64,000 bases of DNA from Giardia intestinalis (taxonomy: Eukaryota), in NCBI GenBank assembly GCA_000002435.2, contig CM018789.1; one strand, written 5' to 3'. Position numbers and translations under genes: made by a program. Shown in pieces: positions 21,347-26,324 of the stretch. Positions within the stretch are counted from its first letter, which is position 1; every line of letters starts with the position of its first letter. The notes beneath the pieces were generated by a model, which had not been told where the DNA came from, searched no databases, and saw only the letters and a program-made list of their open reading frames with translations.

Positions 21347-23116
21347 TTAATTTAAGAAGAATTCCATAATAGTGCAAGGGATTGGTACCTTGTAGGTGAG
21401 TAGAGTATTAGGATGAATGACTCCTATCCAACCTAGTGTATGGCCATCGACTACAATTGATGCCCGCCTCCCTGGAAGACAAGTTGGGTGGTCTTCTCCA
21501 ATTAGCTTAAAACTCTTCGCGAGCTTTCTCATGAGATGGTCGAGAAACCCGTGCACAAACTCAAATCCATCAGTAGTGCCCCCATAAATGCATGAGAACT
21601 TCTTCACGGCATGTACTCCAACGTCATCTCTAGCATCGGCATTAGGGACAAGAACCTCAGAGACCTCAAAAAGTCTAAGTGGCAAGCTGATATGTTGCTG
21701 AGCTGAGACAGCCCGCAAGAGGCCTGGAGCTAGGCAAGAACGCGTGTGACTAAACATGGCCGTCTTAGTATTCGATAATTCCACTGGAAGATCCCCGAAG
21801 ATAGAATCCTCTGCAGGACAAAGTGAGAATAGGACCAACTCGATATATCCACACGCAACAGCCTCAGATCTCACTATTTCGCCAAGTCGGAATTCTTGAA
21901 GGATAGACCCCTGCGTCATGGTATTGGGAAGCTTAGCATACTTTTCGGCAATGGCATTATATCCATAGGAGATACAAAAGTTTTCAACTAGGTCCGCTTC
22001 AGCAATAATGTCTTGACGGAAAAATGGAACGTGGCACCTCAATACAGTGTCTGCGAGGTCTGACTTTGCCTGCACCACCTCGGCTCGTATGGACATTCTT
22101 TTGAGGTAGGAACAGACCATGGAAATACTGAGGGTGTTCAGAGGTATACCCGATATCTCACTCAATTTAGCAAGCCTTAAGTCCAATTGGTAAGAAGAGA
22201 TGAGAGGATAGGTGACCTTTGCATGTGGCTTGTTGATGGGGAGCTGAGTGTGCTGGCTAGTAACACTATCATATACTATCGTCACTGTCTCTACCTGATT
22301 CTTCTTCCGTGTATGCATACGGATAGAATTAATAACGTTGTTTAAAGTAGCACAGGCCTTGTTAAGATCTGTTGCTGTGCACTCGATAAAAACGTTAGTT
22401 GTGCTCAAGGAGACCTTGGAATACTCGCTATTTATGATCGGAGGAAGAGACAAGACCTCTCCGCGACCATCTCGAATGACGGGCCACAGAGGCTCATTCT
22501 TGATGATGTGGAGGTACGATGATAGCTGACGGTCTCCTTCGAGAACTTTAAATAGTGACCTTCCATCCATTACTTCAGATTGAGATAGCGCCAGGAAAAC
22601 GATATCCTCAGGGGGCTGTGCAGAATACGTTATGGAGGATGTGTCAATCTTATCCAAATCGTGGGTGCCAATGGCCACAAGCGTACGCTTTCTGCAAAGG
22701 TTCTGATGCAACTTGTCTTGGTAGTCAATGAAGGAGTTAAAGCTTGTCTGAGTAAAGTTAACACCACGTACAATGGCCGAAACGATATATGGGCGTACTG
22801 GGCCCACTGCCTTACCGTCCACCCTGATTTGGACAGAGCTGTCTCTGGCATACAGTCCCAACGGTTCACCAAGGCCCAAGAACGGTTGCAGTGTAACGGC
22901 CATTCCTTCAACTGAGAGGATGTCCGGTCTATTTGCGGTCACATCCACTCTATAATGCTTCACTGGTCCTTGCTCCTCCAGAAATCGCTCTGACTGCATA
23001 ACGACCTCGTCTAGCTCCATGCCAAGGTCAGCAAATATGGCGTCAAATTCTTCATCGCTCCTTGTGATCCCAAGAAGACGCTCGAGCTCATGTTTGACAA
23101 TTGTGGCAGTAGGCAT
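21347..23116 (-). CDS. FARSB: phenylalanyl-tRNA synthetase beta subunit (eukaryotic/archaeal type)
   Basis: N-terminus MPTATIVKHELERLLGITRSDEEFDAIFADLGMELDE matches FARSB [37 protein letters not shown]; further conserved blocks (DKLHQNLCRKRTLVAIGTHDLD, HIIKNEPLWPVIRDGRGEVLSLPPIIN). Confidence 0.85.
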   Translation of the reverse strand: MPTATIVKHELERLLGITRSDEEFDAIFADLGMELDEVVMQSERFLEEQGPVKHYRVDVTANRPDILSVEGMAVTLQPFLGLGEPLGLYARDSSVQIRVDGKAVGPVRPYIVSAIVRGVNFTQTSFNSFIDYQDKLHQNLCRKRTLVAIGTHDLDKIDTSSITYSAQPPEDIVFLALSQSEVMDGRSLFKVLEGDRQLSSYLHIIKNEPLWPVIRDGRGEVLSLPPIINSEYSKVSLSTTNVFIECTATDLNKACATLNNVINSIRMHTRKKNQVETVTIVYDSVTSQHTQLPINKPHAKVTYPLISSYQLDLRLAKLSEISGIPLNTLSISMVCSYLKRMSIRAEVVQAKSDLADTVLRCHVPFFRQDIIAEADLVENFCISYGYNAIAEKYAKLPNTMTQGSILQEFRLGEIVRSEAVACGYIELVLFSLCPAEDSIFGDLPVELSNTKTAMFSHTRSCLAPGLLRAVSAQQHISLPLRLFEVSEVLVPNADARDDVGVHAVKKFSCIYGGTTDGFEFVHGFLDHLMRKLAKSFKLIGEDHPTCLPGRRASIVVDGHTLGWIGVIHPNTLLTYKVPIPCTIMEFFLN

Positions 23117-23263
23117 TTTTTGGCAAGACAGCGAATAAATGCCACATCGACTATTGAAACTCTTATTGCACTACATGTTCTTGCTTATAATGTCCCCAAA
23201 GCAACTGTCCGGCAGGCACCAAGTGTTCACAGAGACAACCTCAGTGAGATCAGAAAAGCTAAA

Positions 23264-25477
23264 ATGAACATAGAAAAACGCAATCAAATAGACCTTTCCC
23301 CTGAAAATATAGCCAGCCTACGCTCCATCATTGCTCGTGATATTGCAAAGATCCAGGATGCCCTTTCAGATAGCTCCCAGAACCCCACCATCCACCAGCA
23401 GCTGGAGCCAATTGTCAAACAAAACCAGAAGATCCTACAAAGCCTGGATACCATTGAACATGAATTTACTGCAAATGCAATAGATACCATAAGGAGCAGA
23501 GGTCAAAAGTACGCGGCTATAGTACAATATGTGTTGAGGAATCATCCACAGCTGGAGAGCACATTGACCTCCAAGTCTCGTGGCACAACGTCGTCCGTAA
23601 ACCAGGATGACTCGGATGCAACAGCTCGTCTCACAGGAGACTTAGGTACCCTTAGTGCCCGTAACTCGGTAGAAGAATTCGGTGTCAATCTGTCGATAAT
23701 GAACAAGGCTTCCCTATTACCAGAGGATAAATTGCTGCACAATCCTCCCACACAAGATGCAGAACAATCTAGACCTTTTTTAGGGAGTGTAGACTCTATT
23801 CGTTCCTTTGCGACTAACTATCCTGCTAAAGTGGCCGATAAAGCCGGTCACGGAGGCATCGTGGCCGCTTCCTTGAGCTCTCTTCACGCGCCAGGCGCTT
23901 CAGCAAATAACAGGCTGCAAGATCTTATCAATAGCGATGTTACCCTATTTAACCTAGCCACTCTAGCAAATGCAGAGCCCAACCCTAACGAATGGTCATC
24001 CATAGAGCAATCTCCTGTCTACTTTATTCATGGACATAAAGCTCGAGACAGCTCGATCGCTATCAAAGCGGACTCGTACCAAGCCTTTAGTCCAGGTTCT
24101 AAGCCTCCCTTGCCATCCATCTATACACCACAGGGAGAGTTAATAGACCCCTGTCCACATCACTCGCGGCAAATTCTCTATGAACTAGCCAAGAGGTATA
24201 AGGCACAGGCTGAAGAGCTGGCCGCCAAAGCTGGTTCCAAACTTCAGCCTGGTGTTGCGGATGCTAGAATGGCCACTCTTGCAGAGGAGAATTCTGCTTT
24301 AAAAGTAAGTCTCCATTCAGCGCTTAACGAGCTCTCAGAAATCAAACAGAAGCTTATGCATCAAGTGCAGGGCAGCTTAAACCAAGAAGGCCCTCTGACC
24401 ACTGAAAACATTTCTCTCAAAGAGACCATTGCTCGCAAAAACTCAGAGTTAATCAAGCAGGGACAGGAGCTTAAAGAGACGCGCAACACTGCCGACGATC
24501 TTCAGAAGACTAAGCAGCACCTAACCCAGCTCACTGATGTCTTGCTCGAAGAGCGGAAGCTTCTCCAGGACGAAATACTAAGTCTTAAGCCAGGAGGAAA
24601 GAGCGCCAATAGTACCAAGGAAATAGAGTCTATGTGCAAACATGTTGCTGCATTAGAAAAGCAATTGCATAGCGAGGTTAAGGTCATTAATGTGGATTTA
24701 TCAGAGCAGCTCTCTGCAAAGCTAAAGGATACCATTTTGATTTATGAGCAAATGCTGACGAAAACAAAGCAAAGAGCGGTGGGAAAGCCTCGTACACCAG
24801 ACCAGCGCAATCAATCTGCAACCACTAGCATGCAAGCCTTTAGTCCTTTCGGCAATTTGGGAACCACAAACACAGGTCCTAACAGTCCATATAATCCATC
24901 GTTTACTGAAGGTGGAGCTCAGCGCCACCAAACCAGCACATTAACGCACAGCTTGGCATACGACTCTCATCATGAAGACGCTGAGCAGCTTAGATCGTCA
25001 TCACGCCCGGGATCTGCTCGATCTCGACAGAGCATTCGCTCCACTTCCTCTCGCGCATCTAGTGGACGAAGATCTGTTGCAAGGGGTGCATCATCTGGGT
25101 CCAGAGGTATAAGCCCAGAAGTCTTGACCTATGAGGTTGTCAAGGTGCTAACAGAGCTTGGGCCACGAGCTCCGTCACTCCAGCGTATCGGCCCTCGAGA
25201 GTGGATTGTTGAAAAGAACGGCGCAGTAATATCTGTTAATCTAGGTCACACTGGGACAGTTGTTGTTGAGTCAGAAGGTGGAGTACCTCTTGTTCAGTTT
25301 CTAAAGCGTCTCCAAGACCCACCAACGCGTACAACAACACCCCGGCGAATGAAGTCCCCAGGGAAAATGGCCAAAGACGATGACCAATCAATTGGGCGAC
25401 GGTCCCCAGCTCTGGATACTTCCGGGCTCGCTATGTTTAGTGCTGCTAGGCGCATGATGACACACCAAGTAAAGTAA
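23264..25477 (+). CDS. hypothetical coiled-coil protein with Ser/Arg-rich C-terminal region
   Basis: ORF track start 23090 overlaps the PheRS-beta start on the opposite strand by 27 nt; in-frame ATG at 23264 preceded by aaaagctaaaATG is the more plausible start; no family recognised. Confidence 0.45.
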   Translation: MNIEKRNQIDLSPENIASLRSIIARDIAKIQDALSDSSQNPTIHQQLEPIVKQNQKILQSLDTIEHEFTANAIDTIRSRGQKYAAIVQYVLRNHPQLESTLTSKSRGTTSSVNQDDSDATARLTGDLGTLSARNSVEEFGVNLSIMNKASLLPEDKLLHNPPTQDAEQSRPFLGSVDSIRSFATNYPAKVADKAGHGGIVAASLSSLHAPGASANNRLQDLINSDVTLFNLATLANAEPNPNEWSSIEQSPVYFIHGHKARDSSIAIKADSYQAFSPGSKPPLPSIYTPQGELIDPCPHHSRQILYELAKRYKAQAEELAAKAGSKLQPGVADARMATLAEENSALKVSLHSALNELSEIKQKLMHQVQGSLNQEGPLTTENISLKETIARKNSELIKQGQELKETRNTADDLQKTKQHLTQLTDVLLEERKLLQDEILSLKPGGKSANSTKEIESMCKHVAALEKQLHSEVKVINVDLSEQLSAKLKDTILIYEQMLTKTKQRAVGKPRTPDQRNQSATTSMQAFSPFGNLGTTNTGPNSPYNPSFTEGGAQRHQTSTLTHSLAYDSHHEDAEQLRSSSRPGSARSRQSIRSTSSRASSGRRSVARGASSGSRGISPEVLTYEVVKVLTELGPRAPSLQRIGPREWIVEKNGAVISVNLGHTGTVVVESEGGVPLVQFLKRLQDPPTRTTTPRRMKSPGKMAKDDDQSIGRRSPALDTSGLAMFSAARRMMTHQVK

Positions 25478-25479
25478 AT

Positions 25480-26310
25480 TTACAATCTGAATGAGAGAAC
25501 GTTATCATCTATGTTTCCCGACTGTTGCACATGTCTAAAATAGCCGTTTTCCCCCCACGCAGGCCCCCAAGACCCGCGCAGAATCCAGTAGTCCGTACCA
25601 GACTCTACTCCGTAACCAACGATAACAACTGACATATATCCCAAGAGCTTACCTGCAACATGATGATATATACCGGAGCCATAGTAGAGAAAGTCTTCGT
25701 AGAGAGCAAATTCTGTTGCTACTGGCCCCTCTGTGACCAGCGCCTCTTTTATCCTATGAGGATTCCGATGCCCGATGTTATAAAATGCTTTAATGCTCGT
25801 CTTTCGGAGCGCATAGCCATCGCTACAAGCAAGTGGGCAAGAAGTGTCGTCAAAGTAGTTGCCGATACAATCGAGAGTCGCAACCCCGTTGGCCAAAAGC
25901 CAATCCCAGAGCTCCATAATATTGAACCTCAATGAGCTATCAACACACGCCTTCAAAAATGGCACTGAGAGGGCCCACTTTGTGTAATTACCACTTGTAG
26001 TCTTCATACAAAGTCTATCTTCCAGAACAGAAACAGCAGAGCACGCCCACGCGTCCTCGAGACGACAGATCTTAACAGTGGCTTCCGTAGTGCATTGTGG
26101 AAAGCCGTCACGCCAGTCATAAAAGACGGGCGGAACGAATTGTGCACCGTGTCCTGGTGAAGCATGTGTGGGTGCAGTGCTTCCCGGATGAACATCGGTC
26201 AAAGGCCATATGCCCCTATGCTCATAAGGCAGGGATGAGGGATCTAAGGGAATGACTGAAGGAGTCCACTTGAGAGAGCTTTCTAACAAAATAGCTGCAA
26301 GAAGGGCCAT
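25480..26310 (-). CDS. cathepsin B-like protein, apparently catalytically inactive (C/H/N triad substituted)
   Basis: Clear cathepsin B similarity (occluding-loop region, YEDFLYYGSGIYHHVAGKLLGYMSVVIVGYGVESGTDYWILRGSWGPAWGENGYF). At the catalytic positions the residues are A (DAWACSAVS vs QGSCGSCWAFS), Y (LGYMSVVIVGYG vs GGHAIRILGWG) and G (RGSWG vs ANSWN). Start reset from GTG to ATG at 26310, giving a signal peptide MALLAAILLESS. Confidence 0.65.
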   Translation of the reverse strand: MALLAAILLESSLKWTPSVIPLDPSSLPYEHRGIWPLTDVHPGSTAPTHASPGHGAQFVPPVFYDWRDGFPQCTTEATVKICRLEDAWACSAVSVLEDRLCMKTTSGNYTKWALSVPFLKACVDSSLRFNIMELWDWLLANGVATLDCIGNYFDDTSCPLACSDGYALRKTSIKAFYNIGHRNPHRIKEALVTEGPVATEFALYEDFLYYGSGIYHHVAGKLLGYMSVVIVGYGVESGTDYWILRGSWGPAWGENGYFRHVQQSGNIDDNVLSFRL

Positions 26311-26324
26311 TTTTTGCACAACGA

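What the first reader, a model, noticed from the sequence alone, without database searches (positions are those of the whole stretch)
25480..26310. Cathepsin B homologue with all three catalytic residues replaced (Cys->Ala, His->Tyr, Asn->Gly)
The protein aligns without gaps to cathepsin B around the active-site motifs, yet it reads DAWACSAVS where papain-family enzymes have QGSCGSCWAFS. The oxyanion Gln is also absent. It has LGYMSVVIVGYG for GGHAIRILGWG and RGSWG for ANSWN. It keeps a signal peptide and the occluding-loop region. A secreted, catalytically dead cathepsin B could act as a pseudo-protease, for example as a decoy, inhibitor, chaperone or host-interaction factor. It sits 14 bp downstream of the SAS-6-like gene.
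Basis: partly seen in the sequence, partly recalled or inferred. Interest (0 to 1): 0.55.

Follow-up and report, generated by a model that had tools for sequence, protein, structure and literature searches.

The report
Catalytically dead cathepsin B-like Giardia protein
This Giardia gene encodes a cathepsin-B-like protein that has lost every catalytic residue yet has been kept under selection since before Giardia species diverged, so it is a conserved "pseudoprotease" of unknown binding function: a modest, real find of a known kind.

Summary
The ORF (window 25480-26310, minus strand, 276 aa) is identical to Giardia intestinalis WB XP_037901628.1, annotated "Papain family peptidase". It is a clear papain-family (C1) homologue, closest to cathepsin B by sequence and predicted fold.

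Three independent alignments agree on the active site:
- Catalytic Cys is Ala87 (Thr in two other assemblages).
- Asn is Gly246, and the oxyanion Gln is Ile81.
- The GCxGG substrate-binding strand is deleted.
- There is no occluding loop, contrary to the finding.

It is not a decaying pseudogene. The ORF is intact in five G. duodenalis lineages, with dN/dS of 0.06-0.13 and a C-terminal (R-domain) half 89-94% identical.

A syntenic 208-aa ortholog in G. muris shares Cys->Ala but keeps His and Asn, so the triad was lost stepwise. One divergent G. duodenalis lineage has no copy at the syntenic position.

The hydrophobic N-terminus and a propeptide relic point to the secretory pathway. Secretion was not confirmed, and the protein is absent from the held supplements of two secretome studies.

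Verdict: a new member of a known kind (a C1 pseudoprotease). I found no literature on it.

The parts
25480..26310 (-). Complete CDS of the dead cathepsin B-like protein (276 aa plus TAA stop); identical to G. intestinalis WB XP_037901628.1 / KAE8301688.1 'Papain family peptidase'
   Evidence: ORF list, sequence, Pfam PF00112 at E=4.3e-31, exact-sequence look-up
26275..26310 (-). Residues 1-12 (MALLAAILLESS): probable short signal peptide
   Evidence: Mean Kyte-Doolittle 3.14 over residues 2-9, at least as hydrophobic as the N-termini of Giardia CP3 and of the G. muris ortholog. It is 83-100% identical among assemblages. No dedicated predictor was run.
26131..26274 (-). Residues 13-60: shortened, Pro/Ser/Gly-rich relic of a cathepsin B propeptide. 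SLKWTPSVIP aligns with the W-x-A/P-G motif of the CP3 and Trepomonas propeptides.
   Evidence: Alignment A2. This is the least conserved part (52-81% identity; pN 0.15-0.22, for distant pairs). AF2 pLDDT is 50-80 here. TM-score to human/rat procathepsin B is 0.74 against 0.65-0.68 for mature cathepsin B chains. The segment is absent from the G. muris ortholog.
25483..26130 (-). Residues 61-276: papain-fold (C1) domain without an occluding loop. The R-domain half (residues 171-276) is 89-94% identical across assemblages.
   Evidence: Pfam, AF2 pLDDT 87 / pTM 0.87, Foldseek top hits cathepsin B at E 1e-19 to 1e-21, region identities
26050..26052 (-). Codon GCG = Ala87 at the catalytic Cys25 (papain numbering) position; Thr in assemblage B and in the P0003 lineage; Ala in G. 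muris
25633..25635 (-). Codon ATG = Met226 at the catalytic His159 position (Tyr225 is the preceding residue); His is retained in G. muris
25573..25575 (-). Codon GGG = Gly246 at the Asn175 position; Asn is retained in G. muris
26068..26070 (-). Codon ATC = Ile81 at the oxyanion-hole Gln19 position; varies among lineages (I/T/S/F)
26311..26324 (-). 14-bp spacer between the stop codon of the upstream 624-aa coiled-coil gene and this gene's ATG. It is A-rich just before the ATG (GCAAAAAATG).

Best explanation
This is an old, selectively maintained pseudoprotease: a cathepsin-B-like paralogue of the Giardia cysteine protease family that no longer cuts peptide bonds and most likely acts by binding.

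**Shown**
- It has the papain fold.
- The nucleophile (Cys->Ala/Thr), general base (His->Met), Asn (->Gly) and oxyanion Gln (->Ile) are all replaced.
- The GCxGG strand that hydrogen-bonds the substrate backbone is deleted.
- The gene is intact and under purifying selection in five G. duodenalis lineages.
- A syntenic G. muris ortholog already carries Cys->Ala but still has His and Asn. The nucleophile therefore went first, in the common ancestor, and the rest of the triad decayed later.

**Inferred**
- The N-terminal hydrophobic segment takes the protein into the ER and the secretory or peripheral-vacuole route used by the active Giardia cathepsins.
- It folds with three of the family's disulfides. 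A lineage-specific Cys82/Cys90 pair may form a fourth.
- It works non-catalytically through the nearly invariant R-domain face. That face includes the remodelled, more hydrophobic cleft wall (Tyr225-Met226, Gly246-Ser247-Trp248).
- The likely ligand is a protein or peptide. In G. duodenalis this may include the protein's own propeptide relic, giving a permanently zymogen-like state.
- The role is accessory rather than essential. The gene evolves fast between species and is missing from the syntenic slot in one lineage.
For: - **Fold and family.** Pfam E=4.3e-31. AF2 pLDDT 87, pTM 0.87. Foldseek best hits are cathepsin B zymogens and enzymes at E about 1e-20.
- **Dead site.** Three alignments agree.
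- **Selection.** dN/dS is 0.06-0.13 between distant lineages. pN/pS is about 0.16 for assemblage A versus B, against 0.07-0.16 for four neighbouring genes. All 8 Cys and one N-x-T sequon are conserved. All full-length isolate variants keep A/T-M-G.
- **Age.** The G. muris gene L014 13637-14263 sits in the same slot, convergent with the same neighbour at the same 2-bp stop-to-stop spacing. It has Ala at the Cys position with His and Asn retained. A second G. muris-like lineage is the same, with dN/dS 0.21.
- **Secretory targeting.** Both species have a hydrophobic N-terminus.
- **Propeptide relic.** Alignment A2, and a higher TM-score to procathepsin B than to the mature enzyme.
- **Dispensability.** L017 and L018 carry a 255-bp spacer with no homology where the gene should be.
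- **Established knowledge.** Cys25 and His159 are indispensable in clan CA peptidases. Cys25Ala mutants are used as inactive forms (e.g. PDB 2c0y, listed).
Against: - No expression, localisation or activity data were obtained.
- The protein name and its assemblage B locus tag are absent from the held supplements of two trophozoite secretome studies. That argues against abundant secretion, though files may be truncated and the WB identifier is unknown.
- No signal-peptide predictor was run, and the putative signal peptide is very short (about 12 residues).
- The binding partner is unknown.
- The propeptide-in-cleft idea rests only on TM-scores and pLDDT. I could not inspect model coordinates.
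- The G. muris ortholog lacks the propeptide and most disulfides, so any mechanism that depends on them cannot be general to the genus.
Confidence: 0.75

Rival explanations
1. It is a decaying pseudogene or functionless relic that happens still to have an open reading frame.
For: - The gene is absent from the syntenic slot in one G. duodenalis-complex lineage.
- The G. muris ortholog is shortened to 208 aa and keeps only 3 Cys.
- dN is about 1.3-2.5 times that of neighbouring genes.
- A few public-assembly variants have frameshifted C-termini.
Against: - The 276-codon ORF is intact in five lineages whose synonymous sites are near saturation (pS 0.59-0.70), while pN is only 0.11-0.14.
- The R-domain is 89-94% identical.
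- The gene persists in synteny across the G. muris / G. duodenalis split with dN/dS 0.21 in the G. muris pair.
- All 8 Cys are conserved.
Confidence: 0.07
2. It is still an enzyme that uses relocated or alternative catalytic residues, for example the conserved Cys82 or Cys90 with His217/His218, or it has a new non-peptidase chemistry.
For: - Cys82, Cys90 and His217-His218 are invariant among G. duodenalis lineages.
- The G. muris ortholog keeps His and Asn at the canonical positions.
- Migrated catalytic residues are documented in some pseudoenzyme families (review PMC10211241, listed).
Against: - Cys82 and Cys90 are not conserved in G. muris, which has Pro and His at those columns.
- The former nucleophile position drifts freely between Ala and Thr.
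- The oxyanion Gln and the GCxGG substrate-binding strand are gone.
- Cys82/Cys90 are more simply read as a replacement disulfide for the lost Cys22-Cys63-type bridge (inference).
Confidence: 0.05
3. It is specifically a decoy that soaks up host or parasite cystatin-type inhibitors and so protects the active secreted Giardia cathepsins.
For: - Cystatins bind papain-family enzymes without needing the catalytic thiol (established knowledge).
- Giardia has a cystatin that inhibits CP14019, CP16160 and CP16779 (PMC10454693).
- The Trp248/Trp252 cluster on the R-domain side of the cleft is retained.
- Fast between-species evolution and loss in one lineage fit a host-interaction gene.
Against: - The L-domain half of the canonical cystatin-contact surface is deleted or replaced. 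This covers the Gln19, Cys22-Cys63 and Gly65-Gly66 region (contact map from my own knowledge of papain-stefin structures).
- A decoy should be abundant, yet the protein is not found in the held supplements of two secretome studies.
Confidence: 0.1
4. The triad only appears lost because the alignment register is off.
Against: - With the register corrected, the His position is Met, still not His.
- phmmer against PDB chains, a 95-sequence MAFFT alignment and a 9-sequence MAFFT alignment agree at all four positions.
- No Cys lies within 2 residues of the nucleophile column, and no His lies within 7 residues of the His column.
Confidence: 0.01

Closest known systems
Giardia cathepsin B-like cysteine proteases (CP1-CP3; CP3 = UniProt P92133, GL50803_16779) and Trepomonas sp. 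PC1 cathepsin B
   Same: - These are the closest named active relatives (122-125 bits, 30-32% identity).
- Same papain fold and same lack of an occluding loop.
- Signal peptide plus a cathepsin-B-type propeptide motif.
- Three shared disulfide positions and the shared 'SWGPxWGExGYFR' R-domain signature.
   Different: - The catalytic Cys, His, Asn and the oxyanion Gln are all replaced.
- The GCxGG strand and one family disulfide are lost.
- The propeptide is shortened and lacks its first helix.
- It is not among the proteases reported as secreted or active (PMC5955458, PMC10454693).
SMIPP-Cs, the scabies-mite inactivated cysteine protease paralogues (PMC5956821)
   Same: Both are parasite-encoded papain-family (C1) homologues with mutated catalytic sites that are nevertheless retained, and both are argued to have non-proteolytic roles.
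   Different: - SMIPP-Cs are a multicopy, cathepsin-L/Der p 1-like arthropod family.
- This is a single-copy cathepsin-B-like gene in a diplomonad, conserved in synteny across Giardia species.
- There is no homology beyond the shared family.
Other non-catalytic C1 homologues: TINAG/TINAGL1 (cathepsin-B-like matrix proteins), Plasmodium SERA5 (Cys->Ser), soybean P34 (my own knowledge, not tested here)
   Same: All have the papain or cathepsin B fold with the nucleophile replaced, are routed through the secretory pathway, and act by binding rather than cleavage.
   Different: - Those proteins usually change only the nucleophile (to Ser or Gly) and keep His and Asn, which resembles the G. muris ortholog.
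- The G. duodenalis protein has lost the whole triad, the Gln and the GG strand.
- It has none of their extra domains, and no orthology is implied.

Membership tests
Peptidase family C1 (papain family), as a homologue | Significant match to the family profile (Pfam PF00112 above the gathering score) | tested here: met
   109.1 bits against a cut-off of 20.7, E=4.3e-31, residues 63-265 covering profile positions 4-207 of 220
Peptidase family C1 (papain family), as a homologue | Two-domain papain fold (helical L domain plus beta-barrel R domain) | tested here: met
   AF2 model with pLDDT 87 and pTM 0.87. Foldseek finds 278 PDB chains at E<=0.001, topped by cathepsin B.
Peptidase family C1, as an active peptidase | Catalytic Cys25 (papain numbering) at the N-terminus of the central helix | tested here: not met
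   Ala87 (Thr in two lineages)
Peptidase family C1, as an active peptidase | Catalytic His159 | tested here: not met
   Met226
Peptidase family C1, as an active peptidase | Asn175, which orients the His, and Gln19 of the oxyanion hole | tested here: not met
   Gly246 and Ile81
Peptidase family C1, as an active peptidase | Peptidase activity, sensitivity to E-64 | not testable with these tools
   Needs recombinant protein and activity or probe assays
Cathepsin B subfamily | Closest sequence and structure relatives are cathepsin B enzymes | tested here: met
   The top PDB sequence hits and top Foldseek hits are cathepsin B. The nearest named relatives are diplomonad cathepsin B.
Cathepsin B subfamily | Occluding loop of about 20 residues with the His-His pair that confers carboxydipeptidase activity | tested here: not met
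   The query has 14 residues where SmCB1 has 44. The segment is as short as in Giardia CP3.
Cathepsin B subfamily | Short cathepsin-B-type propeptide | tested here: inconclusive
   Residues 13-20 align with the W-x-A/P-G motif of CP3 and Trepomonas propeptides, but the first helix is missing and the rest is poorly conserved. The propeptide is absent in G. muris.
Pseudoenzyme (pseudoprotease) | Homologous to an active enzyme family but lacking its catalytic residues | tested here: met
Pseudoenzyme (pseudoprotease) | Maintained by selection, i.e. not a pseudogene | tested here: met
   dN/dS 0.06-0.13 between distant G. duodenalis lineages and 0.21 in the G. muris pair. Syntenic conservation across species.
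Pseudoenzyme (pseudoprotease) | Expressed as a protein with a non-catalytic function | not tested
   No expression data could be tied to this gene. It was not found in the held supplements of two secretome studies.

The most novel reading that the evidence does not exclude
The dead cathepsin is a secreted or peripheral-vacuole regulator of Giardia's virulence proteases, or of host factors that meet them. It would bind a partner through its invariant R-domain and remodelled cleft face. Its presence, absence and rapid divergence among Giardia lineages (absent from one divergent assemblage, stripped down in G. muris) would then contribute to host adaptation.
Probability: 0.15. Interest if true: 0.6.

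Novelty: new member of a known kind. Interest (0 to 1): 0.38.

Why it matters
Cathepsin-B-like cysteine proteases are the best-supported virulence factors of Giardia. They are routinely counted and targeted as a family: 21 C1A genes in WB and 15 in G. muris (PMC7641422).

At least one conserved member cannot be a protease. This has three consequences:
- Gene counts overstate the proteolytic repertoire.
- Inhibitor-based and activity-based studies will never detect this protein.
- A non-catalytic partner may exist in the protease system.

The stepwise decay is also a clean natural example of how a pseudoenzyme evolves. The nucleophile was lost before the Giardia species split. His and Asn were lost later, in the G. 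duodenalis lineage. One lineage then lost the copy at the syntenic position.

The significance is moderate. Dead papain-family homologues are already well known in other parasites.

Tried and rejected
- **Single-sequence AlphaFold.** It gave an unusable model (pLDDT 34). It was repeated with a 95-sequence alignment.
- **Word-indexed homologue search.** It found only the three ortholog clusters. The exhaustive HMMER search was needed for distant relatives.
- **Neighbour-joining tree of the best hits.** The query grouped with other long-branch dead homologues (P0052, P0114, P0097). I treat this as probable long-branch attraction, not evidence of orthology.
- **Orthologs in more distant PheRS-linked contigs (L015, L019, L020).** The genes in the equivalent position are ABC-ATPase fragments, not C1. 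Presence outside G. duodenalis and G. muris is therefore unresolved.
- **Literature.** Eight full-text searches found no paper on an inactive Giardia C1 homologue. They covered catalytically inactive, pseudoprotease, papain family peptidase, GL50581_1203, degradome and non-peptidase homologue. DuBois et al. 2008 is not held.
- **GiardiaDB identifier.** I could not determine the GL50803 number, so expression and proteome tables could not be queried by ID. The G. muris supplement lists a likely ortholog, GMRT_14649, only in the MEROPS table, and its expression row was not in the held text.
- **Model coordinates.** They are not exposed, so the Cys82-Cys90 distance and the position of the propeptide relic could not be measured.
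- **Mis-register explanation.** Rejected (see rival explanations).

Full report
**What is there.** The minus strand carries an ORF from the ATG at 26310 to the TAA at 25482-25480, 276 aa. An in-frame GTG three codons upstream gives the 279-aa form listed by the ORF tool. The 276-aa sequence is identical to Giardia intestinalis WB XP_037901628.1 / KAE8301688.1, annotated "Papain family peptidase". The window is therefore G. intestinalis assemblage A DNA. The gene starts 14 bp after the stop of a 624-aa coiled-coil gene. It ends 2 bp from the stop of a convergent 795-aa gene. No other papain-family gene lies in the window.

**Family.** The protein matches Pfam Peptidase_C1 at E=4.3e-31 over nearly the whole profile. 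By sequence, its best solved relatives are cathepsin B enzymes: Schistosoma SmCB1 at E=1.5e-28, then human, bovine, rat and trypanosome cathepsin B. An AlphaFold model built on a 95-sequence alignment is confident (pLDDT 87, pTM 0.87). Its best Foldseek matches in the PDB are cathepsin B zymogens and mature enzymes at E about 1e-19 to 1e-21. In an exhaustive HMMER search of 1.84 billion representatives, nothing lies between the ortholog cluster (80% identity) and generic C1 proteins at about 30-36%. The nearest named active relatives are Trepomonas sp. PC1 cathepsin B and Giardia CP3.

**The active site.** Three independent alignments agree. They are phmmer against PDB chains, MAFFT of 95 homologues, and MAFFT of nine sequences including Giardia CP3 and Trepomonas cathepsin B.
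- Catalytic Cys: 'CGSCWAF' in active enzymes reads 'LEDAWAC' here, giving Ala87.
- Catalytic His: 'GGHA...GWG' reads 'GYMS...GYG', giving Met226. Tyr225 sits on the preceding Gly position.
- Asn: 'NSWG' reads 'GSWG', giving Gly246.
- Oxyanion Gln: Ile81.

Tyr at the preceding position also occurs in active relatives that read 'GYH'. Beyond the triad, the 'GCxGG' strand is deleted. In papain-family enzymes (established knowledge) that strand hydrogen-bonds the substrate backbone and carries the disulfide partner of Cys22. Cys22 itself is Leu84 here.

The occluding loop is not retained. The query has 14 residues where SmCB1 has 44, and the segment is as short as in Giardia CP3. This matches the literature statement that most Giardia cathepsin B-like enzymes lack the loop (PMC10454693).

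**Not a pseudogene.** Orthologs were recovered, with the same neighbours, from five lineages:
- assemblage A (WB);
- a lineage 99% identical to WB;
- assemblage E (P15, EFO65716.1);
- assemblage B (GL50581_1203, annotated 'hypothetical');
- a further lineage at 75% identity, from runs ERR3333378/80/83.

All are 276 codons without indels. Between distant pairs, synonymous sites are near saturation (pS 0.59-0.70) while pN is 0.11-0.14, giving dN/dS of 0.06-0.13. Four neighbouring genes compared the same way between A and B give dN/dS of 0.04-0.09. The dead cathepsin has the highest dN of the set (0.124 against 0.05-0.10) but is clearly constrained.

Constraint is uneven:

| Region | Identity among assemblages |
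|---|---|
| R-domain half, residues 171-276 | 89-94% |
| L-domain half, residues 61-170 | 68-89% |
| Propeptide relic, residues 13-60 | 52-81% |

All eight Cys and the N108-x-T sequon are invariant. The former nucleophile position drifts: Ala in A and E, Thr in B and in the 75% lineage. The Gln position varies too (I/T/S/F). Met226 and Gly246 are fixed in every full-length variant examined.

**Age and stepwise decay.** I used the neighbouring PheRS beta gene as an anchor. In G. muris (GCA_006247105.1) the same slot holds a 208-aa Peptidase_C1 gene, convergent with the homologue of the 795-aa gene at the same 2-bp stop-to-stop spacing. RRS1 and an eIF3 subunit lie nearby, as in G. duodenalis. 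A second G. muris-like lineage (SRR30592944) has the same arrangement. These proteins are only about 30% identical to the G. duodenalis protein, where PheRS beta is 54%. They share its derived features, including Ala at the nucleophile position ('LAEAWAH').

They still have His and Asn at the canonical positions ('GSHHVILIGWG', 'LLENTWGP'). The simplest reading is that the Cys was lost before G. muris and G. duodenalis diverged. His and Asn then decayed on the G. duodenalis branch. The G. muris protein has a hydrophobic N-terminus joined directly to the mature-domain start. It has no propeptide and only three Cys. The two G. muris-like copies differ with dN/dS of 0.21.

**Loss in one lineage.** Two independent assemblies (ERR3333379, ERR3333381) have PheRS beta 82% identical to WB. 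In both, the flanking genes are present and the slot is a 255-bp AT-rich spacer with no similarity to the gene. I believe these runs are the dog-specific assemblage C/D single-cyst genomes, but that is from memory and was not verified. Whether a copy exists elsewhere in that genome could not be checked. In three more distant PheRS-linked contigs of unknown taxa, the genes in the equivalent position are ABC-ATPase fragments, not C1.

**Targeting and propeptide.** Residues 2-9 form a hydrophobic core (mean Kyte-Doolittle 3.1). That is at least as strong as in Giardia CP3 and in the G. muris ortholog. Residues 13-20 (SLKWTPSVIP) align with the W-x-A/P-G motif of cathepsin B propeptides in CP3 and Trepomonas. 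The first propeptide helix is missing. The model's TM-score is higher to human and rat procathepsin B (0.74) than to mature cathepsin B chains (0.65-0.68). This suggests about 20 N-terminal residues are modelled like a propeptide, though I could not inspect coordinates. Entry into the secretory pathway is therefore a reasonable inference. Export is not shown: neither 'GL50581_1203' nor 'papain' occurs in the held supplements of two Giardia secretome studies.

**How it most likely works.** By established knowledge of clan CA peptidases, a protein without the Cys/His dyad, the oxyanion Gln and the GG strand cannot hydrolyse peptide bonds by the family mechanism. Its retention under purifying selection for the whole Giardia radiation sampled makes it a pseudoenzyme. 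The near-invariant R-domain includes the remodelled cleft wall (Tyr225-Met226, Gly246-Ser247-Trp248). That points to a binding function on that face, in the compartment where active Giardia cathepsins travel.

Several features suggest an accessory, possibly host-related role rather than a core cellular one: rapid between-species divergence, loss in one lineage and simplification in G. muris. A canonical cystatin decoy is less likely, because the L-domain half of the usual inhibitor-contact surface is gone (inference). Relocated catalysis is unlikely, because the candidate residues (Cys82, Cys90, His217) are not conserved in G. muris.

**Comparison with known systems and novelty.** Dead papain-family homologues are well documented. 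Scabies-mite SMIPP-Cs are one example (PMC5956821). TINAG/TINAGL1, Plasmodium SERA5 and soybean P34 are others, from my own knowledge. Among the 150 best hits to this protein, 36 of 106 full-length C1 domains lack at least one triad residue. The gene is annotated and is presumably one of the 21 C1A genes counted in WB (PMC7641422). I found no paper noting that it is inactive or studying it. I therefore rate it a new member of a known kind, of moderate interest.

Noticed in passing
The label is unverified. The G. muris supplement names a different gene (GMRT_15828) as the SAS-6_N protein.
   Followed up: partly
L017 7400-7654 and L018 (same coordinates): In two assemblies of a divergent G. duodenalis-complex lineage (ERR3333379, ERR3333381), the slot that holds the dead cathepsin gene elsewhere is a 255-bp AT-rich spacer with no homology. 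This looks like a lineage-specific loss.
   Followed up: partly
L014 13637-14263 (minus strand; G. muris CM016928.1) and L016 13641-14267: The syntenic G. muris ortholog is only 208 aa. It has no propeptide and three Cys. The nucleophile is Ala, but His and Asn are retained. It is probably GMRT_14649 of the G. muris protease table (MEROPS match only at residues 108-187).
   Followed up: partly
proteins P0032-P0180 (hits): About a third (36 of 106) of the full-length C1 domains most similar to this protein lack at least one catalytic residue. One is a protein of 'Eukaryota sp. GEM-RC1' (KAL0240868.1); most are from unnamed metagenome or SRA assemblies.
   Followed up: partly
proteins P0032-P0039: The highest-scoring non-orthologous hits are 450-870-aa proteins with two to eight tandem C1 domains or C-terminal C1 fragments. 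Their origin is unknown.
   Followed up: no
window 25477-25480; L014 13634-13637: The dead cathepsin gene and the convergent 795-aa gene (613 aa in G. muris) end 2 bp apart in both species, so their 3' ends and polyadenylation signals must overlap the opposite gene.
   Followed up: no
proteins P0009, P0011, P0012, P0016 (cluster of the window protein): A few public-assembly variants of the protein have frameshifted C-termini, each on one to three short contigs. I could not tell whether these are assembly errors or real null alleles.
   Followed up: no
window 23090-25477 (plus strand): The ORF tool gives 795 aa for the convergent neighbour from the first ATG, but public gene calls give 785 aa (assemblage A) and 737 aa (B and E). 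The true start is probably downstream.
   Followed up: no
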